From: Amoebophrya sp. A120
Taxonomy: Eukaryota; Protista; Dinoflagellata
Reading direction: 5' to 3'
Length of the DNA: 64,000 nucleotides
Assembly: GCA_905178155.1 (NCBI GenBank)
Contig: CAJINV010000003.1
Coordinates: 888,035 to 952,034 of the forward strand
A program made the translations under genes and the position numbers. The notes beneath the pieces were generated by a model. That model did not search any database and had not been told where the DNA came from. It worked only from the letters and a program-made list of their open reading frames with translations. Below, piece after piece: positions 9,801 to 62,727 of the stretch; the stretch's first letter is position 1; the number at the start of each line of letters is the position of its first letter.

Positions 9801-11087
9801 ATGGAGGGAGACTTGCAGGTAAAGTTGTGTTTTCATGCGGACTTCGAGTTTCGCTAGATATTTCTATTTGATGTCCTATGAGCAAAAGCAAGCCAAGTTG
9901 TCCAAGGTCAATGCAACGGGCGCAGCAGCGCTGCTCGACATATTTCTTTATGTGTCATACCCATATGGTGAACGTCACGGCCGCACTTGGGACTCCTGGT
10001 CCTGGTCGTGCTCCCGTGCATATTCATGAACTTGAACATGTAGGAATACTAAAAGAACCACGAAATCATAAAATCCGAACAGGTCTCTCTAGTAAGCGCG
10101 ATTGGCGGGTTGATGCAGCACCACCGCGAGGAATTTGCACAAGAAGGATTCGCCCTCCACTCCCAACTGATGACGGAGTGCATCAACAGTCCCGACCCGG
10201 AATTGGTTCGCGTGGGTCGGCTGATCGCGGCGGACTTTTTGGAACACATGCCGAACCACACAAAGACCTTGTGGCCCACGGTTCTGCCCAAGCTCATCGT
10301 TGCGGTGGACACGAAGAGCATCCCGGAGGTCGTGCAAGCGGGGGCGTTTGCCCTCTCGATGCTGGTCAAGGAGCCGGAATTCGCACTGACGGGGGAAACG
10401 AAAAACGTCGCGGACCGATGTGCCAAGTACGTCGAAAAAGTCGCTGGCTGGAAGAAGGGAAGCCTGCCAAAGGGCATGCAGTTCGCAAGCGACAACTGCC
10501 TTGCTTGTCTCGGAAACTTGCTTCTAGCACACGGCACGCAGCTCGGTACTCATTTTCATTGATGTGGTTTTGCTTTTGCGCTTTTAAGTTATGAAACTAG
10601 CACAGAGACAGACGACCGAGTTGTTACTCATTTTTCGCGATTTCTTTGTACGTTCGTTACGAATGTAGAACGAAATCGCGAAAAACGTAGATGTTGGACT
10701 TGGAGACGGAGAAGGATCTCGCAATTCGAAAATACAATCGTAGAACAACCTAAAACTTGTACAGGTGAAAACGAAGCCCGTGGTATGTGGCAAGGCTGGA
10801 TGAAGTGCTTGCCTCTGAAGGAGGACGAGGAGGAGGCCGTTCGGGTGCACGAGTCACTGGTTGATCTGGTCCTCGCCCAGGACCAGAGGGTTCTCGCCAA
10901 CCTCGACGAAGCCGTTCGCGTCATGACCCTCGTCTACAAGACACCGATGGCGAACCAGCGCATCAACGAAAAGATCGTCAAGATCGTCCGCGGCGTCAGT
11001 AGCACCTTGTTGGAAAAGGCCATATCGGGCTTTTCAAAAAAACTGCAAGCCAAAGTGCGTCGTATCTATCAAGACGTCAATGCATAA
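6864..11087 (+). CDS. Importin-beta family karyopherin (importin-5/Kap121-like), exons 6864-7290, 7489-9818, 10083-10545, 10765-11087
   Basis: HEAT-repeat protein with acidic loop EESNDEDDTEEE followed by ALDRL, plus GAAIECASTLG, PLLDFEYDDAVRASA and C-terminal WMKCLPLKEDEEEA...HESL, all typical of importin-4/5. GT-AG introns 7291-7488, 9819-10082 and 10546-10764 are phase-compatible. Confidence 0.85.
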
Positions 11088-16934: not shown

Positions 16935-19111
16935 ATGCAGCGTAACCCCAACGTCGAGGACGATCAGTTGACGAGTAGCGGAGGCTACGGGTCGCCCGGT
17001 CAACATCTGGGATTTCACTCGCCCCACGAGGGAGCGTTGACACCCCAACTACAGTTCGATTACAATGGCGTTCCCGTCGTGGTCTCCGAGCAGCCGCCGC
17101 CCAGCATCCGCGACGACCTGGAACGGCACCGCATGGAGCTGCGGCGGAAGATGGATCACGAGCGCGCACAGGAAGAGCGCCTCAGCCAGGAGATCTACGC
17201 GGCAAGTAAGACTTTCAGTGGAGCATCAAGCTCCTCGTCCTCCTCAACCTACAACGGTGCGGGCCTTGGCCTTGGCGGCAGCGGAGTTCTTGTAGGTGGA
17301 GCCTCTGCAACAACGTCGACCAGTGGCCGGCGGAGCAAGCACAGTTCCAAACAGCACCGGTCCGCCAGCAGCAAAACCACCACAGCCTCGCCCACCGGAC
17401 CCCCGCCACGCAGCGTGAGCACGACGACGTGGCAGGAGGACCAGCAGCACCAAATGTTGGAGCTGACGACCCAGGTGATGCGCAAAACCCGGTCCGAGGG
17501 CTTCTCGAAGCATGAAGGAAGGAGTATTGTTCAGGCCGACGAGAACCACTTGATGTTTGGCAACGAAATCGAGAATCACTTGCAGCACTCGGTGCGGGAG
17601 CTTGTAGATGAGGAGGCGGAATTATCCAGTGCAAAAGTATCGTACTCAGCATTACAAATTCCAGTTCTCATGCTAAGGAAATTTGTAATGCAATTCATAC
17701 TAGGTAGTATGTACGATCACGATGCTTTTGCAATTCATACAGATTTTACCGCTACAACCAGAGGGAGCTCGAGCAAGCGGAACGGCGGCAATTCGAGTAC
17801 AACCACAGCCAGCACAGCTACCAGAAAGGCGGCAGCACTTCCTCATCTTCCGGACAACTTACCACCAGCAGTAGTAGGGGTGCAGCGGTGAATTCGCAGA
17901 CCCCGGCGCCACAGCTGTGGGACCCGAGCTCCCCGGCTTTTTACGAGCAAAATGGGAACAAGAAGACCGTGTTTTCCTATCACGGCATCCAGATCCAGGA
18001 CCAGACCGAAGAGCACCGGGCGGGGAAGGAGAGCGAGCGTTCGGTGCTGCTAGTCGTGGTCGGTTTTCTCCTCGTGTCCCTCGCGATCGCCATCGTCGTG
18101 ATGTGGTGTGACCTGGCCAGCGAGGAGACGAAAACGCTGCATCGGTACACGCACTGGTGCTCCGCGGGGCTCATCGACTATCTACCAGCCTACTACGCGA
18201 GCTACGCCGTCATGACGTTCACCGTTATCTTGGCGCTAAGCTCCCGGCATCCCACGCTCCGCAGGGCCGTGCAAGAATTCATGGACGCGTGCAAGGCGAG
18301 GTAAGTACTTACTTGGATTCACTATAGGTTACTAGTCAACTTTTCTCACGCAAAAGCAAGTGCTCATCTGTGCAGTAGATGTAGCGATCTTCCTGCGTGG
18401 TTGCACATCACACACACACAGTTCCATGCCACATAAACATTTTTTTCATTTCCACGTAAGAACTAATTTTTGCATAAAGCGCAAGCATAAAGTGGTACAC
18501 AAAAATGACACTGCGAGCGCTGCTTAAGATGCTTCTGCTCCTTGTCTTATCTCGAGGTGCCTGCCGCACCGCTACCGAGCTCTGGACGACGATGGTGCGA
18601 ATGGCTACCCACCAATTACGCCATTCCCCACGGTCGCGTCACACAGGGAAACTCCGTTTTCTGCCCACGAGACCCCGCTGGGCGTATTCGAAGAGAAGAG
18701 GAAGAAAAAGAAAAAACACCACCGCGAAAAAAACAACTCCCATTCCGAAACACGCGAGAAGGAGCAGCTACACCAGGTACTGTGTCCTATTCTTACTGTT
18801 TTTCATGATGTTGAGATCAGTTGGCTTCTGCTTATCATCGTTCTTGCCTCCGTATGGAAGCAACTGTCCGAATGTTTGATCTTCATGTGCTGGAGGTGTA
18901 AGTGTACATCTACATCAATCAAAAAAGTGTATCTAAAAGAAAAACAATCGCCGGCACCACTGTTGAGAATATCTCCATCGTGCCTTAGACTTAGTCTTAC
19001 ACCTACTACTTACACAACACTTACTAGCCCTGAGTTTGTTTCTTCCAGCGAGATCATGCTCTGAAGCGTCTAATCGTCGACGTCATTTTTTTCGTAGAGC
19101 GGTTGCGGTAG
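16935..19111 (+). CDS. Hypothetical membrane protein with two hydrophobic segments; probable exons 16935-17620, 17743-18300, 18557-18776, 19049-19111
   Basis: Removing 122 nt around the element at 17623 shifts into the frame of ORF 17888 (EEAEFYRYNQRELEQAERRQ...). TM-like stretches are VLLVVVGFLLVSLAIAIVVMW and YAVMTFTVILAL. The last two exons rest on GT-AG phase compatibility only. Confidence 0.55.
17623..17739. mobile_element. Intronic TIR element, family A
   Basis: tatccagtgcaaaagtatcgt ... acgatgcttttgcaattcata. The flanking repeat is degraded (ggaat/cagat). Internal gcattacaaatt and aatttgtaatgc. Removing 122 nt restores frame. Confidence 0.8.
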
Positions 19112-19471: not shown

Positions 19472-22400
19472 ATGTCCTTGGAAACTAGCAGAACTATGGC
19501 GACGCACACAAATGCAGCAGACGGCCCGGGCCCCCCTGTCGTCCCTCTCAGCGCGTCCCGAAAGCTATTGGGGTTTCTGAATCGTATCGTTCCCTGTTCA
19601 ACCAAATGCTGTCCCCCTCCTGAACAGTCTTCGCGTAGCGAGCTAAACACTCGTCGCACACTCCACCTAGTCAGTGCGGAAGACTACAACCGACGGCATT
19701 CCCTGTTTGGGCCCGGATGCAGTCGCGCCGTGTCCTTTTTCGACGCCAATGACGGTGGATTGAACGTCGAGGAACAGACCGAGCTGCTGCTCGATTCCGC
19801 GATGTCAGTGGTTGTCGGAAATTTGGATTTGGGTCTATTGCCAGAAGATGACAACTCTCCCGGAAGGCAGAGCAGCAAAAGTCGCACCCTGGCTCGGTCC
19901 CGTCTGCGGCAATCCCTTTTCGGAGGCGACCTCTTCTTCGAGGATCTGGATCGCGCGCGACGAACAGGAACAGCCCGGAGATCGACGGAATTTTCTGACT
20001 TTCCAGAAATTAATACCACTGCCGCGGACCAAACGATAGAAAACGACGACGACGGTGATGATCCAGAGCAGCAGCTTTTGAACGCAGCCGCAGTCCGGGC
20101 GCTGCAACAGCAACAAGGTGGAAGCCGGGGTGACTCACAGAGCAGTGCGCTTTCGGGAGAAGATGGTCATCGGTTTCTGACCCCATACGGATCATACCAC
20201 CCTTCGTACGCGAGTAGTCTGGCACACCTTGCGGCCGAGGAGAAGCACGGACAGCTAGAAGGACGTCAGCAAGGGGATCAAGTTTTGTTGAGCCACGTCA
20301 ACTCCAGCACCTCGCTTGTACTGACCGACGAACATCAAAATGGTGACCCGTTGCCGCCTAGCGTCATGAGTTTCTATCCCCCGACTACAACGTGGCATTA
20401 CCACGAGAATGCGGGCTGCACCGATGGCGAAGACCTCGAGCGCTTCTTGTCGCCGTTGCCGGAACCCACCAAGCCGACGCGAAAGCAAAAGCCAAAGAGC
20501 AAGGAAGCGTCAGAGCGGACCAGTAAAGGTCGCGCAGCACACCGTGCAAACGCAAAGAGAAGCAAACAGGAAACCAGAGGGGAGCAGAGCAGCAGTGGGA
20601 TCATAACATCAACCACGACTGTGGCATCGGCGCATACAAGTAGCAGTCATGGGACCACAGCCAGTAGTAACAGCATCGAGTACGTCGAGCACGACACAAC
20701 TGATACTAGCGGCCTTGTCCATGGTGGAAGCACTACAGACCAACAACAACACCCTCCTGTAAAAATAACCTACCCTGTGACAGTTGTGCCTAGTCGTGAA
20801 CGCACCAGCTCCTGCCGCAAACCGCAAATCATTGCTCACATCCATTCCCATTCCTATGTCTCTCACACACTAGCATTCTGTCCTCTTGTTGATCTCAGTA
20901 GCGCGCTATCTATTAGACTCAGTCGCACCAAAACGACAACGTCATCAACGAGTCGTGGCTAAATATATTGGCACGTAGCGACGCTAGCGCCGAAGGTCAG
21001 GGTGAATGAAAAAGGACACGGGTCGAGGACGAACGCGTCTTTGGTCCTTACACCTCCAGATAAACCGTGCGTGAAGTGAAAGAGAAAGATGTTCTCTTTC
21101 TTTGAAATGCACACAATCCGATGCCAAACGAAATATCGAAAAAACAGATACGGCAAAAGACAGCGGACATCCACGGGCTGATGGCGTCGAAGATTGGGCG
21201 AAGTCCACTCGAGGAGCCTGATGCGGCCGCGCTGGAAGAAGCAGCGGCAAAAATGACAAGAGCCTTGTCCGGGAGCTCGCCGCCTGGCGTTGACGTGGCC
21301 AAGAACAACAGCGCTACAAAGGGAACCACCACTTCCACGGACGGCCAAGCGTCGCAAAAGCGCAGCGGTAGGAGGACCAGCAGGACGAACGACCCAACTC
21401 AGCGGGCTTTGAAGAAGGAACATCGCAAAATGAAGATGCAAGCACAGCAGCAGCAGCAGCTCCACCAACAGCAGCAGAGCGGGACGGCCAGCGGATTTGC
21501 GACGCCAGGGGCGGGACCAGCCACTGCGGGGCTGGATCTCTCGCTGCAACACGCGAGTCCAGTGTACAGCGAAAACGCCTGGGCCAGTTGCATGGGATCA
21601 TCAAGTAGCAGCTCCTCCTCCTCGAGCGAGTCCGAGTCCTCGGAGTCGGAAGAGGACGGTGGTATGAGCTGCAAAAGTATCGTACTAGTATGAATTGCAT
21701 TACAAATTGGCTTAGCATTTACAAATTAAATTTGTAATGCGGATTCGCCGTAAGAAAAAGATTTGTCATGCGTAAAAGCAATTAGTACGAGCACGATACT
21801 TTTGCACAGGATTGTTGGAGGAGACATCCAATTTCGCAACTTTCGGGGACTGCGCCCAGAAGTTCGCGAACAAGTCTTCCGCGAATTGAATGAAGGTACC
21901 AGCTTCACGTTTACGTTTTTCTCACGACTCGATACTAGATTTTGATTTCATCAATCTTCGATGGCCGCTGTTAAGGACTCGCATCTTCGGGCTTGTTCTG
22001 TTTGTAGTATTCGGCTTCTACTCAAGCGCAAGAACTCGAAGGCGAACCAGTTGACCGAAATTTTTCAAAGCCAAGGTGCCGACTACTTCTTTGATGCGAT
22101 TTTCAAAAATCTAAAACAGAGCAAATCCTGATAATTCGGGCACTCATCGAGGATTTGAGCCGCGGCGTGATCCAGCGGATACACCCTCAAATGACGCCAG
22201 ACAAGGTGGCGTCCTTCTGCCGCTTTTTCGGTGGTGCCGAGTGCGGTTGCATGCGGTTCCTCAAGGTTACCGGCTGGGACCGGCGCAAGGCCATGGAACG
22301 GATTACTAAGGCAACGTTGTGGCGCCACCACGAATATGGATTGCAAACATGTCTGGGTCTGGAAACATGGGACTTGTAATGCTAGTCCCACACTTCTGTA

Positions 22401-24287
22401 AAATCTGTATTGCATGATTAACAAAAAAGACGCCCTCTTTGGTCATACAAAAGCGCAGTTTCTCATGCGGAGTGAGCATGAGAGAGCGTTCTGCAAACTT
22501 GTCATGCACATGCTTGGCTGCATTGGGTAATACTTCAGCTATCCACAGTTCAGCATCACAAGTTTCCTGACCCAGACATATTTGCACAGGATAACGAAAT
22601 GCCGAGACTCCGCCAAACGTGCCGGGATGTGCTGGATGAGTTCAACGCCGTTCCGAAAGAAGCCGTGTTTCCTTGTACAGTTTTTTGTTTTCATCTTTTG
22701 GTGTAGTCTGTGTCAGCGTGGTCAACACAGCTGTTACTCCACCTTCATAAGGAAATTTATTTTTATGTGCGGAAAAGATCTAGCTTTCATGCTGCTCAAG
22801 AACACTGGTGGCCCTTCTTCTGATGTATTCTGAGACCTAGTATTTGCAGTTGCACTGACTTGCTGCCCAAGAACGGCCGCATAATTGTTCTACTAGGTGT
22901 CGGCAGCTACTACACAGACCGCGCGTATCAGGCGTACGACGGGTCTCCCGTGGAGTTCTGGCGGCTGTCCAAGATCAACTTTACGAAGCTGTTTGCGAAG
23001 TACACGGAGGACGAGTGCGAGCTCGCGTACGTAAACTACGTCCTGCGGAAGGAGGAGACCTGCCGTCGGTGCCTATGCATTGCAAAAGTATCGTACTACG
23101 TGGTAATTGCATTACAAATTCGCTTAGCATTACAAATGAAATTTGTAATGTGGTTTTACCTTAGAAAGGAGATTAGTCATGCATAACAGTAATTACTACG
23201 AGAACGATACTTTTCCAGAGCATAGTGCCGCGCGCAGGGCATTTTCGCGGTGATTGACTGCAAAAACGCGAGCGTGAGCAGCATGGTGTGGCAGGTCCCG
23301 AAGCTGAAGATCATGATCCGGTTATCCTGAGTAAAACCGTACCCACACCAGAGTTGTAATGCAGATTTGCAAAGACAGGAAGACCTGTAACGCACATCCC
23401 CATGAGAGCCATTTCCTATCGTGTCTCGGAATTTGTGATGCTGTGTACAGGATGAGCAGATGAATCTGTGATGCGGCTGCACTTGCTAACCTGCACTACA
23501 CTGCAGAGTGCAGCTTGTCATGCGTGACTCACAAAACTCCTCGGTTTGTGTTGCAAAATCCCCATCCTGACTCTGGTGTGGGTACGTTTTTACTCAGGAT
23601 ACCGGTTCATGGGTAAATACGGTGAGCAGTTTTTTCCGGATTCCATCTCCCGCGCGCTCGTGTACAATGCGCTATCGCAACAAAAAATTGTTACAGTTAC
23701 ACATTGTGTTGCAGGCCAAGCAAGACAGACAAGCTCTGCCATGCCGGATGTGCATAGGGGCCTCGTTTCATAGGTGTTTTCCCGTAGGATCTCTGCATTA
23801 CAAGTTTCCTCACTCATGCAGAGAAATTTGTGTTGCTGAATTCGCTACAAATGTGTAACTGTAACACTTTTTTCGTGGGATATGCGCCGAAGGGCGCCGA
23901 CTACTTCTGGAAGCTGTTCTCCTCCGTGTTAAGCGCCGCGACGATATGACCGTGCACAACTTGCCCTGCTGCTCTCCCTCATTTGAAGGGCAGGAAAAGC
24001 AACACAAGCAACAGTAGAAATAGAAAAGGGGCTCTCGCATGACAAATCTGCGCGCGGCTTGTAGTACTGTTGGATGAGGAGGTTCCGAAATTTGTCATGC
24101 AAGTAGTACTTACGAGCAAGGTGCGAGTTTGGTATTTTGCATTACAAATGAGCAGGGGGAGGGGGGTTGTGCACTCTCATAGACGAGGGAAAAAGTGCAG
24201 ATTGTCTCGACCGATGGCCGGGAGGAAATCTCGAAACTCATGGACCTCCGGATCGTCTCCCAACTGGAGCAGCTGCTGCCGGAGTGA
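19472..24287 (+). CDS. CRAL-TRIO/Sec14-like lipid-binding protein, paralog 1, with 3 GT-AG introns and 6 TIR-element introns
   Basis: After removing GT-AG introns 20759-21147, 21896-22119 and 22675-22896 and the elements at 21663, 22335, 23074, 23323, 23673 and 23945, the protein reads FFGGAECGCMRFL..WRHHEMPR..FPCVGS..YDGSPVEFW..EETCRRCRAQGIFAVID..MIRFMGKYGEQFFPDSI..YNAPKG..TREKVQIVS..LLPE*. This is collinear with the intron-free paralog at 25398. The join of the first exon is the least certain part. Confidence 0.8.
21663..21813. mobile_element. Intronic TIR element, family A
   Basis: tatgagctgcaaaagtatcgt ... acgatacttttgcacaggatt. Flanks are ggtgg/gttgg. The removed length is 156 nt and contains an in-frame stop. 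Confidence 0.8.
22335..22593. mobile_element. Intronic TIR element, family B
   Basis: tatggattgcaaacatgtctgggtctggaaac ... gtttcctgacccagacatatttgcacaggata. Exact acgaa repeats at 22330-34 and 22594-98. Removal gives WRHHEMPR, matching paralog 3 WRCVDLPR. Confidence 0.9.
23074..23224. mobile_element. Intronic TIR element, family A
   Basis: tatgcattgcaaaagtatcgt ... acgatacttttccagagcata. Exact gtgcc repeats. Removing 156 nt gives TCRRCRAQG. Confidence 0.9.
23323..23601. mobile_element. Intronic TIR element, singleton with 32-nt near-perfect TIR
   Basis: tatcctgagtaaaaccgtacccacaccagagt matches the reverse complement of the right end with 1 mismatch. Exact ccggt repeats. Removing 284 nt gives MIRFMGKYG. 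Confidence 0.92.
23673..23882. mobile_element. Intronic TIR element, family C
   Basis: tatcgcaacaaaaaattgttacagttacacatt ... aatgtgtaactgtaacacttttttcgtgggata. Exact tgcgc repeats. Removing 215 nt gives YNAPKG. Confidence 0.9.
23945..24181. mobile_element. Intronic TIR element, singleton
   Basis: tatgaccgtgcacaac ... gttgtgcactctcata. Exact gacga repeats. Removing 242 nt gives ATREKVQIVS. Confidence 0.9.
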
Positions 24288-25397
24288 AGAAAGCAAAGCG
24301 AGTCGCTTCGACCCTGTGCTCTGTCTTTACGACCCAGCGACGTGGACTATGCCCAGCTTCTTCCGCTAGGCAAATGATGATGTTGAAAGAACAGCTCCTG
24401 CGCAAGAGTAGGTGAACGAACACCTCCCAGGGCCGACTCGTCTTCGTCACCGCTGTGCTTTGACATTCCCGCTGGTTGTGCAGTGAGTGCTGACCGTAGA
24501 GGACATGTAGTTGTCCTTCACTTGCCTTCACCAGCAAGAATGTCAAAGTCACAGCCTCTGGTGGTATTGTTCCTACATAATCATCTTCATGCGACCTTTT
24601 CCTAGAACGACCTAACACGAGCAAAACCAGCGCTACTAACTTTCTTGTAAGTACATAAAAGATAAACGAGCAAGAACGCTAACGCATGGGAACAAATGGA
24701 GACTCAAGTAGGAGTTTGCAAGATCGGTTTTGATGTTCAGCCACTACCGGAAGGAAACATCGGTTCGTGGTCGTCCTCTTATTTCGCCAATAAAAAACAG
24801 AACTCGGTAAATTCATCACTCTCGTTCGGAAACAGAGGCTTTTGCTGAGTGTACACAAAGTTGACACGGACTCGTGACGACATGATCACGTGTCCAATAT
24901 CAATCTCATCGGTATCTAAACGAAACAGGTCGGTCGCCTTCGTGAATGCTGCTCCTGACCAACCGTATCAGTTGTGGGTCCTGATCTATTTGTCCACAAC
25001 GCGTCGTGGTACATAGTCCCTGTTTCTCTGCGTAGAAACGAGCCAATTCGACGTGCTCCCAGCTGTAAGTATCTTATCAACAAACCAGAACCTCCTCCCA
25101 AACCAGATCGACAAAACCCAATCCCCGACTACTTAGATAAAGATGTTGTCTTCTAAAAGTGGTAGATTTATTCGCTGTGACCTCTCGTAAGCAAGGAAGC
25201 ACGACATGTTAGAGTTAGATGAAGACAAAATCAGAACTGCTAACTAACGCCAAATCATTTTGTGTTTACCCTCTCTAGTTCGTTTTCTGTGCTTCTCCGC
25301 TATTAACACGAGCAGTGACCTAAACGTAAGCGGCGCCTATTACATAATATTTTCCCCCCTATTTCAACACGCGTAAAAATTATTCTGGCATCGAAAG

Positions 25398-27269
25398 ATG
25401 GCAACGACGAAGAAGAAATTCACAACCGCCGCTCTGCCTCAGGACGCCTTGTTGGTAGAGCAAGAGGTAGAGCGGTCAGTTGAGACACCGCCTCCGGCGC
25501 CGGAAATACCGCCAATCAAAATCGATTTTCATCGTGCTGGCCTCGGGAAGCTGTTCGGAGCTACTGGAGGTCCTGCTGCAGCTGCAGCTGCAAACAGCAC
25601 ATCAGCTAAGGACACAACCGCAACATCTAGCACTGCCGTGGACGAAGATGTGCACCAGACAACTAAGGACAAACACAGCGAGGATGACGGGGATAGTACC
25701 GCACGACCTCCCCATTCGGCAACAAGTTCAGCTAGCACCTCAAGCGGCAAGGCGTCGAGCATCTCCGCTAATATCGAAACAGAGCGTGAGAATAGCGCAG
25801 CGGCGCCTGCTCCTGGTGTCAACACGGAAACAAAAAACCTGGATGTGGATTATATTAACCAGAATGTTGACAGCAAAGACTCCTGGAGTAGCAAAAGCAG
25901 TCCGCACGAAGAGGTCGCGACGATCACGATCTCTGACGAAAGCATTAAAAATCTTTCCGCGTCGGTGGAGGAGAGGCAGCAGCAGGAGCACGAAAAAAAA
26001 GTTGCTGCACTTGAGTTCAACAACTTCTCTACCATGAACCCTTCGGTACGAGCGAACATTCTGAACGACCTTGACGCGAAGAAAATTTCTAGTGTCAAGC
26101 GGCTGATGCGCCAGCTGCTGGAAGCTGCGGAAAGAACCGCGGCCAAAAATGAGGAGCAGAAAAACGCAAAGAACAGCAAGCCGCGGCAAAAGGACCAAGC
26201 CGACAAGCACGACACCACTAGCCTGTCTACAGCGGAGGTCACATCCTTTGCCAAATTCTTTGGCGGCCTCGATGCGGGTTGCCTGCGGTTTCTGCGGGTG
26301 GCCCACTTTGATATAGAAAAGTCGCGCGAGAGGATCGTGGCAGCGACGAGGTGGCGAACGCACACGATCGAAAAAGACTTCGCGGGCGTAAGGAACATCC
26401 TGCGCAACAACCCGCGCTTCCAGAAACTGTTCTTCCCTTGTGTCGGGTCCGCGATCGTCTCCGCGAAAAACCCCCTGCCACCCGTGGATCTCGAGAACAA
26501 CGAAATCCTTTGCGGGTACGACGGCAGTCCGGTGGAGCTGTGGCGGTTGTGCAACGTGGATTTCGACACGATATTCTCGGAATACACCGACAAGGAGGTG
26601 GAGTTGGCCTACATCACCTACTGCTTGACCAAGGAGGAAACCTGCCGCAGGACGCGGTCCAAGAGCATCATTTCCCTCGTCGATGCGAAAGACGGACCCA
26701 GTCTGGCGTCCATGCTGTTCAAGCACATGGCGACCATCCACCGGTACACGCACTGGATGGCGGCGTACGGAAAAGAGTACTTTCCCGACAGCGTGACCAA
26801 GGTGATTCTCTACAACGCGCCGCCGGGGGCGGAATGGCTCTTCAACATGTTCAAGGGTCTCACGGTCTCCGACGTCGCAAGGGAGCAGGTAGTCATCCTG
26901 TCGGCTGGCATTCCCGAATCTTCGAACCACTACTGGCCAGCCCCACGTCGGGACCGAACGACGAGGACCAGCACCGGCTCCACAACAAGTACGACTTCGG
27001 CGAGCGATGGCACAAAAAATTCTTCAGTAAAATCTGGTGCGGATTTTACTGACTCGAGAAAAACCTCGACCACGGCGCAGCCTCCAGCATCTCGCGAGTC
27101 CTCGTCAAGAACCACGCGTATTTCGATTTCCGTGGCCACTTCAAATAAAAATATCGACACCCGCGCACTCGAAGAAATTCAAAAAGTTTTGGACTACGAC
27201 CAAGTCGTGCCAGAACTCTATCGAAGACTACCTGTCGTGAAAGACAAAGACAAGAAAGTCAAAGCATGA
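25398..27269 (+). CDS. CRAL-TRIO/Sec14-like protein, paralog 2 (intronless, 623 aa)
   Basis: Contains CLRFLRVAHFDIEKSRERIVAATRWR (CRAL N-terminal), YDGSPV, SIISLVDAK and EYFPDSVTKVILYNAP, the Sec14-type YP-E...iiNaP motif. Confidence 0.85.
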   Translation: MATTKKKFTTAALPQDALLVEQEVERSVETPPPAPEIPPIKIDFHRAGLGKLFGATGGPAAAAAANSTSAKDTTATSSTAVDEDVHQTTKDKHSEDDGDSTARPPHSATSSASTSSGKASSISANIETERENSAAAPAPGVNTETKNLDVDYINQNVDSKDSWSSKSSPHEEVATITISDESIKNLSASVEERQQQEHEKKVAALEFNNFSTMNPSVRANILNDLDAKKISSVKRLMRQLLEAAERTAAKNEEQKNAKNSKPRQKDQADKHDTTSLSTAEVTSFAKFFGGLDAGCLRFLRVAHFDIEKSRERIVAATRWRTHTIEKDFAGVRNILRNNPRFQKLFFPCVGSAIVSAKNPLPPVDLENNEILCGYDGSPVELWRLCNVDFDTIFSEYTDKEVELAYITYCLTKEETCRRTRSKSIISLVDAKDGPSLASMLFKHMATIHRYTHWMAAYGKEYFPDSVTKVILYNAPPGAEWLFNMFKGLTVSDVAREQVVILSAGIPESSNHYWPAPRRDRTTRTSTGSTTSTTSASDGTKNSSVKSGADFTDSRKTSTTAQPPASRESSSRTTRISISVATSNKNIDTRALEEIQKVLDYDQVVPELYRRLPVVKDKDKKVKA

Positions 27270-29017
27270 AGACGCTTTTTGTAGCGAGGTGTCGTAACGT
27301 CGTGTACTACTAGTACTTAATAGTTCATCTCCCGTGTTGATGAAGCTCAGTAGAAGACTGACGCGCAGCTTACGCTTGCACATACATTTTCTGGCACAAT
27401 CGTCCCTTTCCTGAGTTACTAAACGTAAATCGAGATGACCATAGAAGAAGAGGAACGGAAATCACATATGGCCTGCTCTGTGGATCTCGTAAAGAGCCTC
27501 GCCAGCACGTTATTTGATTTCAGTTTTTTCAGCAAGAGCAGCGCTGTCTGCCGTGTCCCTTGTCCCTTACCCGTAGTACCACGTCACTATCACATTTAAC
27601 GTATCGCAACGCAACCAACAAATCTACGGGGCATCGGGGTCTATCGCTGTGTGGAAGAATTTACATGATCTTGTACGTTCTTCATGAGTATAAATGGTCC
27701 ACATAATGCGATTTGTGCGTCGATGTTCTTTTTCTCGCACAGGAGAACGCACCTCGTAGCTGTCCAACTTTTACTTACGGTTTTATTGTTCCCACTTATG
27801 TGTATGTTTGAATGCCAGTCCGACTCCGAGTGCGACTACAGCACTCCTGCTACAGCGCAACATCAGATTGACCAAAAGTAGTTGTTTCGTGGGATGCTGT
27901 TCGTGCCAAGATTGTCTCAATGGGTCTCGCTAGGAAACAATTTTTTTACATCGGTTCGTCCAAAGTGATGATAAAGTCAACATGTTGACAGTTCGTGTCG
28001 GTCAATGACTTACGTTCGAGTCGTAACCACAAGCAAAGCGTACACAAAACGAAGAACAACGACCCGTGGCTCGGTGTCAGTTTCTGTCTTCTACAACAAG
28101 ATTTATTTTTTCTAATGCTGATGCAGCAGATTCGGTACCTCACACTTGCTCAACTTCGTGCATCGGGCTCGGGAAATTACAATTATCGACACACAAATTC
28201 TAAAGCTAATGTCATCCTCGTGACCACAACACGTCAGAGCAGCACGACAAGTTTTTATACGTGTACGTCTTGTGCAGCCCGCACCACGCGGACCCACAGC
28301 TATCCTCCATTTTTTTGAGAAAATATTGATATTCCCGTTTCGACAGGCGCTGTGGTATTCCCCCGCTCGATATCATTACCCCCCTTTTTGCAAAGTGAAT
28401 CTCTATCTCACGTGAGCTTGCTACGCTAATGCTTCTAGTACCTTTCGAAACGCTACTTCTTCGTAAAGATAGAGGATCCGAACGAGACACAGTTGCGAGC
28501 GCGCTAGTTCGATAGCCGTACGGTTTTTTTTGTTTCTGGGCCACTGTACGAGACCGTTGTTGGTATTTGCTTTCGACGCAGGAGTCACATCACTTGGTGG
28601 ACACATATTTTTTCAAAAAGAGCTGCACGACGCCACCGTACTATTAAAAGTACCTGTACTAGCTTCTCTTTAGTTTTCCTTTTAGTAAAAGGATAAAATT
28701 TGTTTTTGTTTGGTTCTACAAGCGGAACGATTACAAGTGGACTCAAGACCTCCCGCCCCCGGCGTACCATTGTTGCCGCGGTGAGAAAGGAGAGCTCTTA
28801 GCCCTTGTTGCAGCAGAGCCAGCAAAGCCGGTGGGATCATACCACCTCGACGAGAACTGAACGATCCCCTGCTCATCTCTTTCAGTGTCAATGCTAGCGC
28901 GAGGGCGAGGGGGGACCACAGGGCCATGATCAAGTTCGAGTCAAAGGATTGATACACAGGCGGAGGCGAAGATGATGAAGCGGCAGTCGTGCTGATTTTC
29001 GTTATCGTACGGTTACT

Positions 29018-32000
29018 ATGCGAGAAGGCGAGCATCACCAATCTTCGCCGAGCACCGACGGGGGTGTGAAGATGATTCAACACGACGACAGCATGTTCGT
29101 GCGAGAGCTGACGGAGAAGAATCTGAACGGGTGTGTTAGTGCGAACGTCGGCACTGATGAAGCTGCACTGGACCAGGACCACAGCAAATTTGAGGACTGC
29201 AGCATTTCGCCGGACGATGTGACCCTGTTCAACAAAACCGCCGGACAGCATGGTTACACAAAGATATCATCAGCTGAAGTTCTCCCGCCGAGTTTGCGAG
29301 ACACAACCGCCAGTGAAGAGAACCCGGATACTAGTGATGCCAGGGAGAATACGACCAATACGACTACCGCTTCCACCTCGACCTTCAACCGCACGAGCGA
29401 ATGGTACAAAAATAATCTGTACCGTGGGCGCGAACCGGACCAGTTGCCAGTCGCCTGGGAGCCCGGGCTATCACAGGAAAAAAGTGTTACAGTTACACAT
29501 TTGCTGGAGTTTCTGCATCACAAAGTTGCTCGACATGGCTAAGAAAACCTGTGATGCGCAGACTATAAGGGAAAACACCAATGAAATGAGGATGGCAAGC
29601 ATTTCCTGCATGACAGAAGTTGCCTGTCTTGCTTGTTTCGCAACACAATGTGTAACTGTAACACTTTTTTCTTCGCATACGGACTCACGGCCGCGGACTT
29701 TCACCCGGCCGAGACGGAAGAGGAATTTTGTCTATGCATTGCAAATATGTCTGGGTCTGGAAACTTGTAATGCTAAAAGCGCATGAGAGCTCTACTGCAA
29801 TACGGAGCCACGCATGACAAATTTTTGGGCTCCCTTGTGTTGCGTGTTCCGCATGGCAAACTGCGTTTTTGCATGACAGTTAAGAAGACCGCTTCATGCC
29901 CATGCATGACAGATTCTTGAGTCATGTCAGACATGCATGACAATGTAGCAATCTTCCAGACCCAGACACTTTTGCATTCCATATTGTCGTCGCTACACCT
30001 ACTGGCGCTTCCCCTTCATCACCGCGGACGGGCGCCGGAAGACGCTGCAGACCTTCGGCGCGGACGTGACTGAGGAAAGCTTGTTGACTGTCGGAACATT
30101 AGGTGGAGCAAGAAATAACAATAGTAGTTCTACAAACGCAGCAGGAGCAGGACCTCCAACAAAGGCAGGATACAGTAGCAAAGCAAACAACATCTCGGTT
30201 TCCAAGCACGAGCTGCTGATGAAGCAGATGCTGTGTTTTCTGCTGAAGTTTGTGTGCAACCGCGAGGCGATCAACGCGCTTCCGATCGTAAAAAAGAAAG
30301 CTCCCTGGTGCGAAGCGGTCACCCCGCTGGCGACAGCGGCGAGCATCCAGTTTCTTGGCGGCTATGAGAACGTCGCACTGCGGTACTTGAAGCTGAATTC
30401 CTGGCGGCTCACGAAGGCAAAGCTTTCTTTGATAGAAGCCATCCGCTGGCGGTGCGTGGACCTGCCAAGGATCTTGCTGCACACCAAACCCTCCAGCGAG
30501 AAAAACACCACCATATTCGCGCCAGCGCTGGCCCCCTCGGCGCTCCGAGGACGCAGTGCGTCTCGGGGCTCGAAAAGCGGTCCGAATAGTCGCGGGAGCA
30601 CAAAATCCAAGAGCCGGGCGCGGAGCGGTAGTAGCCCCCGATCGGGGAAGGAACGGGAGATGAACAGGGTGGAACATCAAAGCCGGGAGAATAGTGCCGC
30701 AGCAGGAGGCGCTGCAAAAACCAATTTGCTAGAGCAGATGACAGGAGGTTTGTCCACAACTGTGACTACCCCTGTGGCCACCACCCCGCAACCTCCAGAG
30801 AAGGCGTTCGTCGGCGAGCATTTGTTTTCCCGTCGCCTGTTTCCGATCATGGGGATACCGTTCGTGGAAGTAACGCCCCTTGCAGACATTCACGACCTGG
30901 TGCAAAACCCCGACAGGCTAAATCCGAAGTCCTCCTATAGAACTGCAGGTATCAGTAAGCGCAAGTAGGACCGCTATAATAAAGAAGTACCGTTTATTCT
31001 CATGATGTTATGGTTACACTTGTATCTGTATCATCTACATCTATTAGTACAGCGCAAAAATAACGAAGTTAGAAGTAGAAGTTGCGAGTAGAATACTAAT
31101 GTCAAAAAGTTGCATCCACTACAGGAGCCGCTACGATAGCAGTTTCCGCTATCACTCCGGGCGAGACTCCGGGCGGCGCGGCGACATCACAGCTAGAGTT
31201 GGATTTGCTAATGCGCTTCGAAAGCAAGACAAAACCCGGCAGTGGCACCCCGGGAAGATATAATAATGGCACAACAGCAGGAGGACCACATGGTCGTACA
31301 GCAGGTGCACCAGAGGGGGAAACGAGTCCGGATTCGTCGCCCACCGTGCAGCCGCGACCGAGAAGGAGTATGTTGGCACGGTGCTGGGGCTCCCTCTCTC
31401 CGAGAAAAAGGAAACTTCGAAGCAGCATGAGTTTAGGTAGTACACCGACTCCCGCAATGTCACGAGGCGGGAACAGCAGTAGTACAACTTCTTTTTACAG
31501 CAGTGCCGTGCCGCACCCGAGTTCTTTCGCAGCAAAAGCAAACGGCACAAACGAGGAAACCACTACGAGTACCGCGTCGTCTTCGGCGAAGGGTAATGGG
31601 AATGGGACATCATCAGCTCAGCACCTCCCAAATGGAGCTGCTGCAATATTGGAGGAAGTGGACGCAAGGTCGGAAACTTTTTCCTTTGTATCGCTGACCG
31701 ACCCGCAACCCTCCCCGCTCGGCCCGCTGCGGGGCGAAGGTAGCTCGGGCGTCTCGAGGTTCAACGCCAGCGCCACAATTATAACAGAGACCGAAGAAGA
31801 GCAGGACGTCGGAGCTGTTGTTGTGCAGCCTGCAGGTGGTGCTTCCACGAACAACGACACAAGTTCTTCCACGACCGCGAACAATACAAACGCTCGCCCC
31901 GTCGGTAGTTCCCGTGCGCAGTCGAAAAGTCTCTTGAACATGCTGTCGAGTCCGATCTCCTCGCGCGCGACGCCAAAAGCCCCTTCTAGTATGACGACGC

Positions 32001-33469
32001 CCTCGTCCGCAGGAGGTAATCCTTACCAGATATTCGACCAAGGCAGCAGCGGCGCAGGCGGCGCGCCGCAGCTGCACCTGGATCCAGCACTAGTGGCGGA
32101 GATCGCCGGCGGCAGGATCGAGGCGGTGCTGCACAACCCGAAGGTCGTGCCCTCATCGCCCTCGTCGTCCGCCTCTCGGGTAGTCGTCCGAGACGACCAA
32201 AATGCCGTTTCCCCAGCCGCCACGACAAACTCGAGCTCCAGTGTTTCTAACCCGAAAATAGTTTTAACAACAGCAACGAAAGGTTTAGGTTCCTCAACCA
32301 CGACGTCTTCGAAAATGGAAACAAAACCGCGAACGGACCCGCTCCGGAACGTGAAGATTTACCTGGCGTACGACGGCAGTCCAGTAGAGTACTGGCAGCT
32401 GAAGCACCTGGACTTCGTATCGAAAGGAAAAATCCCCCCTCCCCATATCAAAACGGAATTTCTTATGCTGGATTTGTGTACACAAATCAGGTCTGTATTG
32501 CAGAGAGGCACTGTGGCCAGATCCCCAGGCTAGGCAGGGGCGTATGGGTCTAGTTGTTCAGCATGGCAAACGGCGCCCCTTTAGGCCCAATTAGCATGAC
32601 AAAGCGCTTCCATAATGGGGCGGAAGCTTCTGCCCTCGTCTTCTTGCAAGACAGATGTGATTTGTGACCTCAAATCAGCAACAAATATATCAAATATCAC
32701 CTCCAGGGCTACGTGCGACCCCTCCGACGCTGCGTGTGGAAGGAGGAAGTTCGGCGTGTTGGGGGTGAGGGACCCCCGACGTTGGCCTACGGATATCATG
32801 GGGAACTAAGGCTCAAATCAGCAACACAAATTCCCGGAAACATACCTTTTCGATATGGGGAGGGGGGATTTTTCCTTTTGATACTTCGAGACCATGTTTA
32901 CGGAGTACAGCACGGAGGAGGCGACGCTGGTCTACGTGCACTACTTGTATCCGAAGTAAATTTCCTGTACACGTACAAATGCGGTCTCTGCATGGCAAAA
33001 CTTGGCTTCGATCCTAGTTTTGCATGACAAGCTTCACACTCCAAATTGGGAAAATTTGTGATGCATCTTGTGCATGTACGGAAAATTTGTATTGCATAAC
33101 TTGGAAGCCAAGGAGCGCGTGTGCCGCGCGACCGGCTCTCGGCAAACGACGCTGCTCCTCGACTGCGCCGGCGTCAGCATGGGGCACGTGGCCACCTGTA
33201 CCAAGTTCATGCACCGGTTCAACAAATCGTGCCTGAGTCTCGGGGACAGCTTCTACCCCGACGGCGTGAAACAGACGTGGCTGGTGAACATGCCCTACGC
33301 GGCGGCGTTTCCGCTGAAGGTAACCCTGAGTCTCCTTGCCCAGTCAACAAGGGAGTCCGTGCGGGCCTTCACGCGCAACTCCTCGGGTCTGCCACCCGAA
33401 ATCCTCACATTGTTGCCGCTGGAGGAATATGAAGCCCTCACCGTCCCGATGGAGAACTCCGTCATATGA
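29018..33469 (+). CDS. CRAL-TRIO/Sec14-like protein, paralog 3, with 1 GT-AG intron (30949-31124) and 4 TIR-element introns
   Basis: The spliced product contains ALRYLKLNSWRLTKA..AIRWR, YDGSPVEYW, DFETMFTEYS..VHYLEAKERVCR and SFYPDGVKQTWLVNMP, collinear with paralog 2. A long S/T-rich insert lies within the domain. Confidence 0.8.
29469..29679. mobile_element. Intronic TIR element, family C, inverted relative to the copy at 23673
   Basis: tatcacaggaaaaaagtgttacagttacacatt ... aatgtgtaactgtaacacttttttcttcgcata. Flanks are cgggc/cggac. Internal gttgcctgtcttgcttg is the reverse complement of caagcaagacag(a/g)caa in the 23673 copy. Confidence 0.9.
29733..29983. mobile_element. Intronic TIR element, family B, inverted relative to the copies at 22335 and 58451
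   Basis: tatgcattgcaaatatgtctgggtctggaa ... ttccagacccagacacttttgcattccata. Exact ttgtc repeats. Removing 256 nt gives EEFCRRYTYW. Confidence 0.9.
32418..32883. mobile_element. Intronic TIR element, 466 nt, singleton
   Basis: Approximately 38-nt TIR beginning tatcgaaaggaaaaatcccccctccccatatc. Exact cttcg repeats. Removing 471 nt gives LDFETMFTEY. Confidence 0.9.
32948..33098. mobile_element. Intronic TIR element, family D
   Basis: tatccgaagtaaatttcctgtaca ... tgtacggaaaatttgtattgcata. Exact acttg repeats. Removal gives HYLEAKE. It is a close sister of the element starting at 47662. Confidence 0.9.
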
Positions 33470-56911: not shown

Positions 56912-59357
56912 ATGGGTGTGGTGTCACAATTTCTGCTTCCACCAGACCACGCCGGAGTCCCATCCTTGCCCCGACATGTCGCGGGAAAGAATTTCGAAGC
57001 AACTTCTCCCGGTCTTTCCGAAGACCCCTGGTCCCCATCGTCTTTGTGGACCGGAACCTCAGCGCCCTCGTCCTCGAGCGGGAAGAAAATTACCCTCTCT
57101 GTTTCCGCTCATCCGTTCAACGAAATAAAAAAGTCTGCTAGAAGTAGTTCTTCATCATTTCTAGACACGGTCGGCTCGCCCGCCAGGTCCGGCTCTTTCA
57201 AACGGATCCGCCAGCGGCTACGCAGTGGGCGGACGACACGGCTTTCGTCGCAAGATTTCTTCCCAACAAACGGCAGCGACGGGGGTTGTATGGTCACGAC
57301 GGCGCAAACAAGTGTTGGCAAAAATCTTCACGAGTCAGCAAATGGTACAGCGAAACCGAGCCAGCATGTAGCAACGAGCTTTTTCCCGACCGTTTCCCCG
57401 GACCTGGTATCTTCTCTGGTAGCCGGCACGGGCACTCAGGTCTTGCGACGCGGCACCGGCCAGCTGGCCAGGTACCTGTTTGGCGATCAAACCGCAGGCT
57501 CTAGTACAACTTCCGCGTTTGGTGTCAGCAGCGCCTTTCACCCGCTCAGCGGGGGAGGTACTATGGGCAAGAAGACGGCACAGCAGCAACTACACCAGAC
57601 TCGGTTGCTGGAGGGAAAACTCAGTGGAGGGCGTAGCAGCAGACACACCTCGTTTCTGTCCCTGGCGGAGAATTTCGGGGCCATCGGCATCTTCTACGGG
57701 GTCGGCATTTTGATGTACGGCTTCACGCCCCACGATCAGTGGTCCGACAGCTACTTCCCCGAGGACAAGGGAAAGCCGGGGTTGGTCGACTGTCTCATCG
57801 AGGGCGGCTACTACGCCACACAGGTTTTAACCACCATCGGCTACGGCGACGTGTACCCCAAGGGGAATTTTCTGCGCATCGTCAACATCTTCTACATCCT
57901 CGCGGGCGTCGGGGTCGCTGGCTCGCTGGTCTTGGGAACCATCACGGACCAGATCACCGACAGGTGAAAATAGTTTTAGATGCTGCAGGAGTTTCATGAA
58001 CTGCGCGGGCGGCTCAATTTTTCGTCGCCTAAGCACGCAAACTCCAGCTCCTGTCTCTCCCTGTTTTTGCTTGTTCGTTGTTTGTGAACAGATGTTATGT
58101 CCGAGCTGCATCACGTCGTTCTACTCCAGCAGATCGAGGTCGTGTAACTCTCATGCAATCATGATCGACAAAATAAAATTTCGTGCCACATCAACATTTA
58201 TTATATACCAGGGTGAAAGACGCCGAGAAACGGCAGTTGCTGGCCACGCTGACGGACGCGGGTGATCCGCATGGTGCGGGTGGTAGTATGGAGAAGCCGG
58301 AGCGCGACCGGCTGAAACGACGAATGGAAGTGACCGAGGGAATGCTACTCGTCACGGTGCCCACGCTGCTCGGGTCTTTGGTGTATGGAGCCGTGCACAA
58401 CTGGGGCGTCGCGGGGTCCCTGCACTGGGCCGTCGTAACGAACTCCACCGTATCAAATGCAAAAATGTCTGGGTCTGGAAGATTACGAGACTTGGCATGC
58501 TTGTCTGGGATGGCCAAAAAGCTTGTGATGCGTGTCCAAGAAGAGACTTTTTTGTCTTCCATGCAAAAACGCAGCTTGTCATGCAAAAGTCGCAACAAAA
58601 CGAAGCGCAGACATTTCTAATGCTTCGCTGGGCATTACAGAGCGTTCACTATTCCCAGCGCAGCATTACAAGTTTCCAGACCCGGACACATTTGCACTTG
58701 ATAAACCGTCGGGTTCGGGGCCTACAGCATCGACAACCGCGCCATGCGACTGTTCTCCATTGCCTACATGAATATCGCGGTCGCCAGTTTCGCGCTGGGT
58801 CTCACGAAACTCACCGGCGTTTTGTTGGACGTATTTAATATATCACGACATTGATTTTGATTCTGATTCATGAACATGATCAGTTGTCGCTCTTTTCTTG
58901 CAGCTATGCCTTCAGTTGAAAATTTTGTGAGAAAGCACAAAGTCAAGTGTGTCCATTGCCGCATGAACTGATGTGTAGTTCCCATGATCATGAGGCTTTC
59001 TTCTAGTTTCATCAGAGTTGTACTCGATGTGCATGAGTAACTTCTCCTCGCTTGAAACACGAACTACAGGAAGTACAAAGCAGCGAACTGGACCCGGACT
59101 CTGTCACGCTCGACCAAGCCTTGGGGATGGACAGCGACGGCGACAAGCGCGTGGACAAGTACGAATTTGCGACCGGTTGTCTCCTGTCCTGCGGCAAGGT
59201 AACGGAAACCGACATGACGCAAATCATGAACCGGTTTCGCCAACTCGACCGGGACGGAAACGGCTTCCTCACCATTGAGGACCTCCCGGGCCAGTCGCAG
59301 CAGGGACAGACGCAGCCGGAAACTACACGACAGCCGACCGGGGCTGCTGCACAGTAA
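56912..59357 (+). CDS. Two-pore-domain K+ channel with two C-terminal EF-hands (TPK-like), exons 56912-57963, 58212-58450, 58709-58830, 59070-59357
   Basis: Pore 1 is LTTIGYGD. Pore 2, NSTVGFGA, appears only after removing the element at 58451. EF-hands are DSDGDKRVDKYEF and DRDGNGFLTIEDL. GT-AG introns are 57964-58211 and 58831-59069. Confidence 0.88.
58451..58703. mobile_element. Intronic TIR element, family B
   Basis: tatcaaatgcaaaaatgtctgggtctggaa ... ttccagacccggacacatttgcacttgata. Flanks are caccg/aaccg. Removing 258 nt restores TVGFG. Confidence 0.9.
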
Positions 59358-62425: not shown

Positions 62426-62633
62426 AGTACAAGATACCCTAGCAAGAACCGCTGGGGGACGCGCTGCGGGGTAAATCATTCATTGAAGGATGGAAGATGA
62501 GCCTGCAGCTCCGAGAAGTCAGCCTCAGCGTACTGACGATTGCCATGAGCTCCACATCAATCATGCCGATGATTCCGATTCGAGCTACGTGGCTAGCAGT
62601 GCGCAAAGGCGCTTGCCAGTTGTGCCTAGCCTT

Positions 62634-62727
62634 GTACTACAAGTTTTGGCTATCACGAACATACTAGGCTGTTACTACAAGTTTTGGCTGTTACTACAAG
62701 TTTTGGCTGTTACTACAAGTTTTGGCT
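62634..62727. repeat. 19-bp minisatellite gttactacaagttttggct x3, plus one displaced copy
   Basis: Exact copies at 62671, 62690 and 62709, and a near copy at 62634-62651. Confidence 0.9.

What the first reader, a model, noticed from the sequence alone, without database searches (positions are those of the whole stretch)
22335..29983. Sister elements sit in both orientations in sense-strand exons
Seen in sequence: family C copies 23673 and 29469 are internally reverse-complementary (caagcaagacagacaa vs ttgcctgtcttgcttg). Family B copy 29733 (aactgcgtttttgcatg) is inverted relative to 22335 and 58451 (catgcaaaaacgcag). All must be removed for the host ORFs to work. Established: spliceosomal signals are strand-specific. 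Inference: removal depends on symmetric features (terminal stem, TATS ends), pointing to structure-guided RNA splicing or to DNA-level excision analogous to ciliate IES elimination.
Basis: partly seen in the sequence, partly recalled or inferred. Interest (0 to 1): 0.8.

Follow-up and report, generated by a model that had tools for sequence, protein, structure and literature searches.

The report
Transposon introns spliced in either orientation
Small transposon-like inserts in genes of a parasitic dinoflagellate (likely Amoebophrya) sit in both orientations and are missing to the base from spliced transcripts but present in the DNA, so the cell likely recognises their symmetric ends rather than normal splice signals; the element class is already published and its splicing machinery is still unknown.

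Summary
Observation confirmed. Family C copies 23673 and 29469 are inverted; family B copy 29733 is inverted to 22335 and 58451. All are TAT…ATA terminal-inverted-repeat elements with a 5-bp target duplication, matching the published introner elements of Amoebophrya A120 (PMC7789003). Contigs of RNA-like runs skip 8 of 8 elements in 20900-30200 by exactly element+5 nt, including both orientations of C and B. A DNA-like run keeps the elements, so ciliate-type DNA excision is not supported. No element offers GT..AG at any equivalent cut (0 of 14). In a second assembly, family C copies in predicted coding DNA split 21:14 by orientation (35 of 71 loci). Either-orientation introners are already published for Polarella and Aureococcus, where ordinary splice sites are used, so orientation alone does not exclude the spliceosome. 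I found no statement on orientation for Amoebophrya. A test for selection on the RNA stem was negative (G·U 24, A·C 18). The scan noted similar hairpin-bounded introns in other genomes. Verdict: known class, open mechanism, small new handle.

The parts
21121..24287 (+). Host gene 1, CRAL-TRIO-type paralog with six introner elements
   Evidence: Product joined at the joints is open to its stop and 39% identical over 224 columns to intronless paralog P0001. The stretch 21897-22124 was not checked by reads.
21663..21813 (.). Element, family A, 151 nt; 5-bp duplication with a mismatch at position 2
   Evidence: Joint 21659>21816, run X4, 1 contig; the upstream copy of the duplication is kept.
22335..22593 (.). 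Element, family B, 259 nt, orientation 1; perfect 5-bp duplication
   Evidence: joint 22329>22594, run X4, 1 contig, depth 5.7.
22675..22896 (+). Canonical GT..AG intron (internal control that the runs are spliced RNA)
   Evidence: Joint 22674>22897 in X2 and X4.
23074..23224 (.). Element, family A, 151 nt
   Evidence: joint 23068>23225, X4.
23323..23601 (.). Element, family D, 279 nt
   Evidence: joint 23317>23602, X4.
23673..23882 (.). Element, family C, 210 nt, orientation 1; perfect 5-bp duplication
   Evidence: joint 23666>23882, X4, 1 contig, depth 9.6.
23945..24181 (.). Element, family F, 237 nt, lacking the AAA run of the inverted repeat
   Evidence: joint 23939>24182, X4.
25398..27269 (+). 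Intronless CRAL-TRIO paralog (P0001), serving as empty-site homolog; likely spliced-leader acceptor at 25087
   Evidence: Pfam PF00650, E 7e-5. Contigs 25087-27813 without a gap; X2 has 8 loose letters before 25087 that, with the genomic AG, end in the five letters PMC7789003 gives for the dinoflagellate leader.
28345..33469 (+). Host gene 3, CRAL-TRIO domain at its C-terminus; four elements and one canonical intron (30946-31121)
   Evidence: X3 record from 28345; X1 record 5; joined frame has a single stop at its end; PF00650, E 3e-6.
29469..29679 (.). Element, family C, 211 nt, inverted to 23673; duplication mismatched at position 4
   Evidence: Joint 29467>29684 in 4 of 4 runs, depth 225-257 in X1-X3 and 8 in X4; the upstream copy is kept.
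29733..29983 (.). Element, family B, 251 nt, inverted to 22335 and 58451
   Evidence: Joint 29727>29984 in 4 of 4 runs.
32418..32883 (.). Element, family G, 466 nt
   Evidence: removal inferred from piece lengths of X1 record 5 and X4 record 12.
32948..33098 (.). Element, family H, 151 nt
   Evidence: removal inferred from the same records.
58451..58703 (.). Element, family B, 253 nt, orientation 1, inside the pore motif TVGFG of a potassium-channel-like gene on +
   Evidence: upstream exon hits Ion_trans_2, E 1.5e-10. No reads laid here.

Best explanation
These are non-autonomous TIR elements (introners) that insert into exons in either orientation with a 5-bp duplication and are cut out of the transcript exactly, element plus one duplication copy, likely by a relaxed major spliceosome that reads the symmetric ends instead of GT/AG. 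Shown: the anatomy; both orientations; exact removal in RNA-like contigs; retention in a DNA-like run. Inferred: because both ends read TAT[G/C]-4 nt-..AAA, the pre-mRNA always begins the insert with N-UAUS and ends it with a U-run, SAUA and the duplication, whichever way the element lies. The two junctions with a mismatched duplication keep the upstream copy. If one rule holds for all, the 5' cut falls 1 nt before or directly at TAT and the 3' cut 4 or 5 nt past the element. The 5' motif would act as donor (N-TATS, beside GTACA and GTATC in the two read-supported canonical introns), and the terminal stem would act as a ruler for the acceptor. RNA-level removal keyed on the ends is about 0.92 likely. 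That the enzyme is the U2/U5/U6 spliceosome is about 0.6 of that and is untested.
For: Eight of 8 elements in 20900-30200 are skipped by element+5 nt, in runs whose contigs also skip GT..AG introns. X5 contigs span introns and intergenic DNA at depth 41-50 and run 22 nt or more into the element at every junction covered by its eight listed pieces. The registers common to the 10 read-supported elements are -1 and 0 only. TIR positions 1-3 and 11-13 are nearly invariant across 14 window elements of nine groups. Family C in a second assembly: 21 same, 14 inverted in predicted coding DNA, binomial p 0.31. PMC7789003 (sections and passages) finds U2, U4, U5, U6 and all but six of 89 spliceosomal proteins in A120, but no U1 and no minor spliceosome. 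In the tunicate Fritillaria the U2 spliceosome is needed for TIR-derived non-canonical introns (bioRxiv 10.1101/2025.08.15.670264, passage).
Against: No AG acceptor in any common register. GT..AG at register -1 occurs in only 2 of 70 insertions and G before TAT in 22 of 70, so the usual terminal G chemistry is missing. No branch point was identified. The cut register rests on 2 junctions. The stem shows no significant RNA-side bias: G·U 24 vs A·C 18 pooled, p 0.44; 18 vs 8, p 0.076, for family C positions 9-33. TIR positions 5-8 pair in only 24-53% of 45 copies, and positions 1-4 are predicted mostly unpaired in 5 of 14 sense folds. PMC7789003 reports that many A120 non-canonical introns have no inverted repeat. 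X1-X4 are not on record as RNA and X5 not as DNA. X1-X3 are one sample and all four are one study.
Confidence: 0.56

Rival explanations
1. Removal is at RNA level but independent of the spliceosome: a nuclease-ligase or an unknown machine recognises the long terminal stem and joins the exons at a fixed offset, as proposed for Euglena nonconventional introns.
For: No canonical dinucleotides and no visible target-site preference. A terminal stem is predicted on both strands of 14 of 14 elements, z -2.9 to -10.4. U1 was not detected in A120 (PMC7789003). In Euglena, terminal base pairing is required for splicing of synthetic nonconventional introns (PMC12501133, passages).
Against: A stem is expected of any TIR element and is no proof of RNA function. 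The G·U bias test was negative. The conserved N-TATS resembles a donor site. A U2 spliceosome handles comparable introns in Fritillaria. In Hypoxylon, terminal symmetry was reported as not needed for intron removal (PMC8469720, passage).
Confidence: 0.35
2. The elements are cut out of the DNA in the transcribing stage, as ciliate IESs are.
For: TIR and duplication anatomy of a DNA transposon. The DNA-like run is one sample of unknown life stage, and contigs drop rare variants.
Against: X5 contigs continue into the elements without breaking at the junctions, though only some bridge by the tool's 31-letter rule and its joint table was cut. X1 holds a contig across the exon-element junction of 29469 (29 exon letters, depth 9.4 against 257 spliced) while intergenic bins are at 0, a hint of unspliced RNA. 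Filled copies also stand in a second assembly. A germline-soma nuclear split is not known for this group (recalled), so excision would be inherited.
Confidence: 0.03
3. The joins are reverse-transcriptase skips across a hairpin between direct repeats, and the real mRNA keeps the elements.
For: A hairpin between short direct repeats is the known setting for template switching (recalled). All RNA evidence here is presumably cDNA-derived contigs.
Against: Retention would break every named host frame, including a channel pore motif. The joined form dominates, 257 vs 9 in X1, and is the same to the base in 4 of 4 runs. Joined gene 1 aligns to the intronless paralog across four of the insertion sites within the alignment and just after a fifth.
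Confidence: 0.03

Closest known systems
Introner elements (IEs) among the non-canonical introns of Amoebophrya sp. A120 (Farhat et al. 2021, PMC7789003)
   Same: Inverted repeat starting TAT, seven variable letters, then AAA; 3-5 nt direct repeats (5 bp in the Fig. S19 legend); many families; about 240 nt mean length; no consensus splice dinucleotides; hairpin model; co-oriented gene blocks.
   Different: Nothing of kind. Orientation of sister copies is not mentioned in the sections, passages and supplement legends I read (figures not seen). The paper calls the splice positions variable; two junctions here point to a fixed register.
Either-orientation introner-like elements of Polarella glacialis (classes 1, 2, 3, 6, 7, 8, 10) and Aureococcus anophagefferens (bioRxiv 10.1101/2020.10.14.339549)
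   Same: TIR/TSD elements that create introns when inserted on either strand.
   Different: They use GT/GC/GA donors and AG acceptors recruited from element or duplication, need particular target sequences, and (classes 6, 8, 10) show an orientation bias. Here there is no AG, no visible target requirement and no significant bias (21:14).
Non-canonical TIR-derived introns of the tunicate Fritillaria borealis
   Same: [quoted passage not shown]
   Different: Preferred ends AG-AC and AG-AT (PMC11282704, passage); U2 spliceosome dependence was shown there and is untested here.
Euglena nonconventional introns (PMC12501133)
   Same: Terminal base pairing, direct repeats that make junctions slide, suspected MITE origin, unknown machinery.
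   Different: CAG/CTG code instead of TATS; pairing shown necessary by knock-in; excised as circles; no such data here.
Ciliate internally eliminated sequences
   Same: Transposon-like, symmetric ends, precise removal from coding sequence.
   Different: Removed from somatic DNA and bounded by TA (recalled). Here the DNA-like run keeps the elements and the duplication is 5 bp of variable sequence.

Membership tests
Amoebophrya A120 introner elements | Inverted repeat at both intron ends starting TAT + 7 nt + AAA | tested here: met
   TAT at 27 of 28 ends of 14 elements; A at positions 11, 12, 13 in 12, 13, 13 of 14 on each side.
Amoebophrya A120 introner elements | 3-5 nt direct repeat at the exon-intron boundaries | tested here: met
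   5-bp repeat perfect in 8 and with one mismatch in 5 of 14 window elements; 17623 has three mismatches.
Amoebophrya A120 introner elements | Removed from mRNA without GT-AG ends | tested here: met
   8 of 8 joints; no equivalent cut gives GT..AG in 14 of 14.
Amoebophrya A120 introner elements | Repeated families across the genome | tested here: met
   71 loci with the family C repeat word in a second assembly; summed depth over elements in X5 about 100 to 4000 times the unique level, which is no copy number.
Amoebophrya A120 introner elements | Host organism is Amoebrophya of the A120 type | tested here: inconclusive
   Spliced-leader tail, 17 of 18 long ORFs on one strand and the repeat signature fit; no marker gene was tested.
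Spliceosomal U2-type intron | GT/GC/GA donor with AG acceptor | tested here: not met
   0 of 14; 2 of 70 at register -1.
Spliceosomal U2-type intron | Lariat with branch adenosine; dependence on U2/U6 | not testable with these tools
   Only contigs mapped; the raw RNA run X8 laid 3 reads.
Ciliate-type IES | Precise empty site in DNA of the expressing nucleus | tested here: not met
   X5 contigs pass the junctions into the elements; one sample, stage unknown, rare variants invisible.
MITE (non-autonomous TIR transposon) | Short, non-coding, TIR and TSD, many copies | tested here: met
MITE (non-autonomous TIR transposon) | Cognate autonomous element with a transposase and the same ends | not testable with these tools
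   No whole genome held; PMC7789003 found no transposase in A120.

The most novel reading that the evidence does not exclude
Amoebophrya runs a second, spliceosome-independent splicing system that treats a transposon's terminal inverted repeat as a complete, orientation-blind and target-blind removal signal. It cuts at the foot of the stem on the 5' side and 4-5 nt past it on the 3' side, so any insertion, even one swollen to 4.8 kb by a nested element (47662-52491), is erased from the mRNA.
Probability: 0.3. Interest if true: 0.8.

Novelty: already known. Interest (0 to 1): 0.4.

Why it matters
How Amoebophrya removes tens of thousands of introns without GT/AG is an open question stated in PMC7789003. 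Inverted sister copies that are both spliced show that the interior sequence can be read either way, which confines the signal to the symmetric ends. Mismatched duplications give a way to fix the true cut register genome-wide from existing RNA data. This narrows the question but does not answer it, and either-orientation introners are known elsewhere.

Tried and rejected
No whole genome was held, so no genome-wide count in the window's own assembly. No holder was on record as RNA. A homolog search with the intronless paralog returned only itself, 1 of 1446 candidates, so there was no annotated spliced protein to compare. Rfam found nothing in 21500-30200 at gathering scores. The G·U versus A·C test gave no support for stem selection. 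Mismatch positions in the duplications (4, 4, 3, 3, 1 for positions 1-5 among 70 insertions) are too few to locate the cut. A17623 looks inverted to the other family A copies in blastn but is ambiguous in the trimmed alignment (z 3.7 vs 3.7 and 2.6 vs 4.2), so it is not counted. The Aureococcus/Micromonas paper PMC5684705 was not held; Aureococcus is cited second-hand. Seven paper searches gave no statement on orientation of Amoebophrya elements in what I opened. Most subscription papers, and the figures and datasets of PMC7789003, were not visible.
Full report
Observation. With the terminal repeats trimmed off, C23673 aligns to the reverse complement of C29469 (z 16.7 against 3.6 forward). 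B29733 aligns to the reverse of B58451 (15.6 vs 0.7) and of B22335 (9.3 vs 2.0), and B22335 and B58451 run the same way (8.6 vs 0.8) (blastn). The quoted family B word is exact only in 58451 and 29733; 22335 has a 13-of-15 variant.

Anatomy. Each element starts TAT[G/C], ends [G/C]ATA (one ends ATT), has an ungapped inverted repeat of 16-55 nt and is flanked by a 5-bp duplication of variable sequence. A strict scan gave 11 elements and 0 in each of 5 shuffles. A relaxed scan added 3215, 17623 and 23945, with 1-6 chance rows per shuffle. TIR positions 1-3 and 11-13 are almost invariant over 14 elements, while positions 5-8 vary. All elements are predicted to fold a terminal stem on both strands (z -2.9 to -10.4). 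All families examined share an internal word of the form TTGTVATGC in both directions; its role is unexplained.

Hosts. Seventeen of 18 ORFs of 280 aa or more lie on +. Gene 1 (21121-24287) and gene 3 (to 33469) are CRAL-TRIO-type paralogs of an intronless gene at 25398. Joined at the observed joints, gene 1 is open and 39% identical to that paralog, and gene 3 is open for about 1070 codons. B58451 interrupts the TVGFG pore motif of a potassium-channel-like gene.

Removal. Four runs that are only guessed to be RNA were laid on 20900-30200 at 99% likeness. All 8 elements there are skipped by their length plus 5 nt. 29469 and 29733 are skipped in 4 of 4 runs (depth 225-257 in X1-X3, which are one sample; 8 in X4). 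21663, 22335, 23074, 23323, 23673 and 23945 are skipped in one contig each of X4 (depth 5-10), and the tool marks these six joints 'between: not known'. That these runs are RNA follows from their skipping GT..AG introns at 22675-22896 and 30946-31121, from empty intergenic bins in X1-X3, and from a loose tail before 25087 that ends like the dinoflagellate spliced leader as given in PMC7789003. Removal of 32418 and 32948 is inferred from piece lengths. 58451 was not covered. So both orientations of family C and of family B are removed, with the orientation-1 evidence thin.

DNA. Run X5 behaves as DNA: depth 41-50 through introns and intergenic stretches. Its eight listed pieces run 22 nt or more into the elements at each junction they cover instead of breaking there. 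Only some of these meet the tool's 31-letter bridging rule, the joint table was truncated, and contigs hide rare variants, so this argues against common empty sites only. X1 also holds an exon-element junction contig of 29469 at depth 9.4 against 257 for the joined form (29 exon letters; a hint).

Cut register. No equivalent cut gives GT..AG in 14 of 14 elements. Two junctions have mismatched duplications, and both keep the upstream copy (29467>29684; 21659>21816). Over the 10 read-supported elements the only common registers are 1 nt before TAT (intron N-T..NN) and directly at TAT. This is inference from two informative cases and assumes one rule.

Wider count. A scan of metagenome contigs with a family C repeat word gave 71 loci, all from one other assembly. 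Two had no right end. Thirteen ill-defined copies, 2 duplicates and 2 with short flanks were dropped, and 52 were scored. Host strand was predicted with a coding model trained on window ORFs: 212 of 212 right at the chosen margin in leave-one-gene-out trials, but 12 of 83 presumed non-coding control positions also pass it. Thirty-five copies passed: 21 like 23673 and 14 like 29469 (p 0.31 against even). Of 21 further elements in those loci, 13 had family B ends; 12 could be oriented, 6 and 6, assuming the same host strand. Family D split 2 and 1. No RNA was available for these loci. Over 70 insertions, G precedes TAT in 22 and GT..AG at register -1 occurs in 2. The test for RNA-level stem selection was negative (G·U 24, A·C 18, p 0.44; 18 vs 8, p 0.076, for family C positions 9-33).

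What is known. PMC7789003 (abstract, sections 11, 12, 16, passages, part 2 of 5 of the supplement, word searches of all of it) describes introner elements in Amoebophrya A120 with inverted repeats TAT + 7 nt + AAA, 3-5 nt direct repeats, 29,850 copies, a hairpin model, missing U1, and an open mechanism. Orientation of copies is not discussed in the text I saw; figures and datasets were not visible. PMC12130899 and PMC9860276 (passages) treat A120 or opposite-orientation insertion only in passing. The Polarella preprint (passages) reports seven classes that make introns in either orientation with ordinary splice sites, and says the same was reported for Aureococcus. Fritillaria (passages) shows a U2 spliceosome removing TIR-derived non-canonical introns. 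Euglena (passages) shows that terminal pairing can be required. Hypoxylon (passages) shows that symmetry can be dispensable. PMC12787238 (passages) notes a U1-70K homolog in strain A25. Earlier notes of this scan record similar hairpin-bounded introns in other genomes (unchecked) and none near this place.

Verdict. The finding is real and belongs to a published class. Its useful residue is that orientation-blind, apparently target-blind removal confines the signal to the symmetric ends, and that mismatched duplications can fix the cut register. I favour a relaxed spliceosome (0.56) over a spliceosome-independent route (0.35); DNA excision and RT artefact are about 0.03 each. Interest 0.4.

Noticed in passing
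window 47662-52491 (nested element 47790-52451): A family H element (137 of 160 columns identical to 32948 once the insert is left out) has perfect 5-bp duplications 4.8 kb apart. It holds a 4662-nt insert with GG..CC ends, about 630-nt inverted repeats built of 91-nt tandem units, and an 8-bp duplication. Removing the whole 4835 nt restores the host frame. Two of the insert's ORFs (200 and 247 aa) had no Pfam hit. No reads laid.
   Followed up: partly
window 53134-53242: A 109-nt element whose length plus duplication is 114 nt and which has no stop in any + frame, so it could be read through as 38 residues. Splicing not tested.
   Followed up: no
window 25398-27269: Intronless CRAL-TRIO paralog between two element-rich paralogs, with a likely spliced-leader acceptor at 25087.
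   Followed up: partly
window, element interiors (e.g. 21697-21763, 22374-22553, 29765-29935): The word TTGTVATGC and its reverse complement occur 18 and 18 times in the window, nearly all inside elements of different families; a candidate transposase or splicing-factor site.
   Followed up: no
window 29464-29468 / 29680-29684 and 58446-58450 / 58704-58708: The single mismatch between duplication copies falls on a synonymous codon position in both cases, so either copy would give the same protein (read from the sequence).
   Followed up: no
window 3215-3531 and 17623-17739: Two more elements in + strand frames that are restored by removing element+5 nt; no read joints seen.
   Followed up: partly
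window 10631-10685; 62626-62739; 49828-50270: A 55-nt palindrome, a 19-nt tandem array and a 120-nt direct repeat inside the nested element.
   Followed up: no
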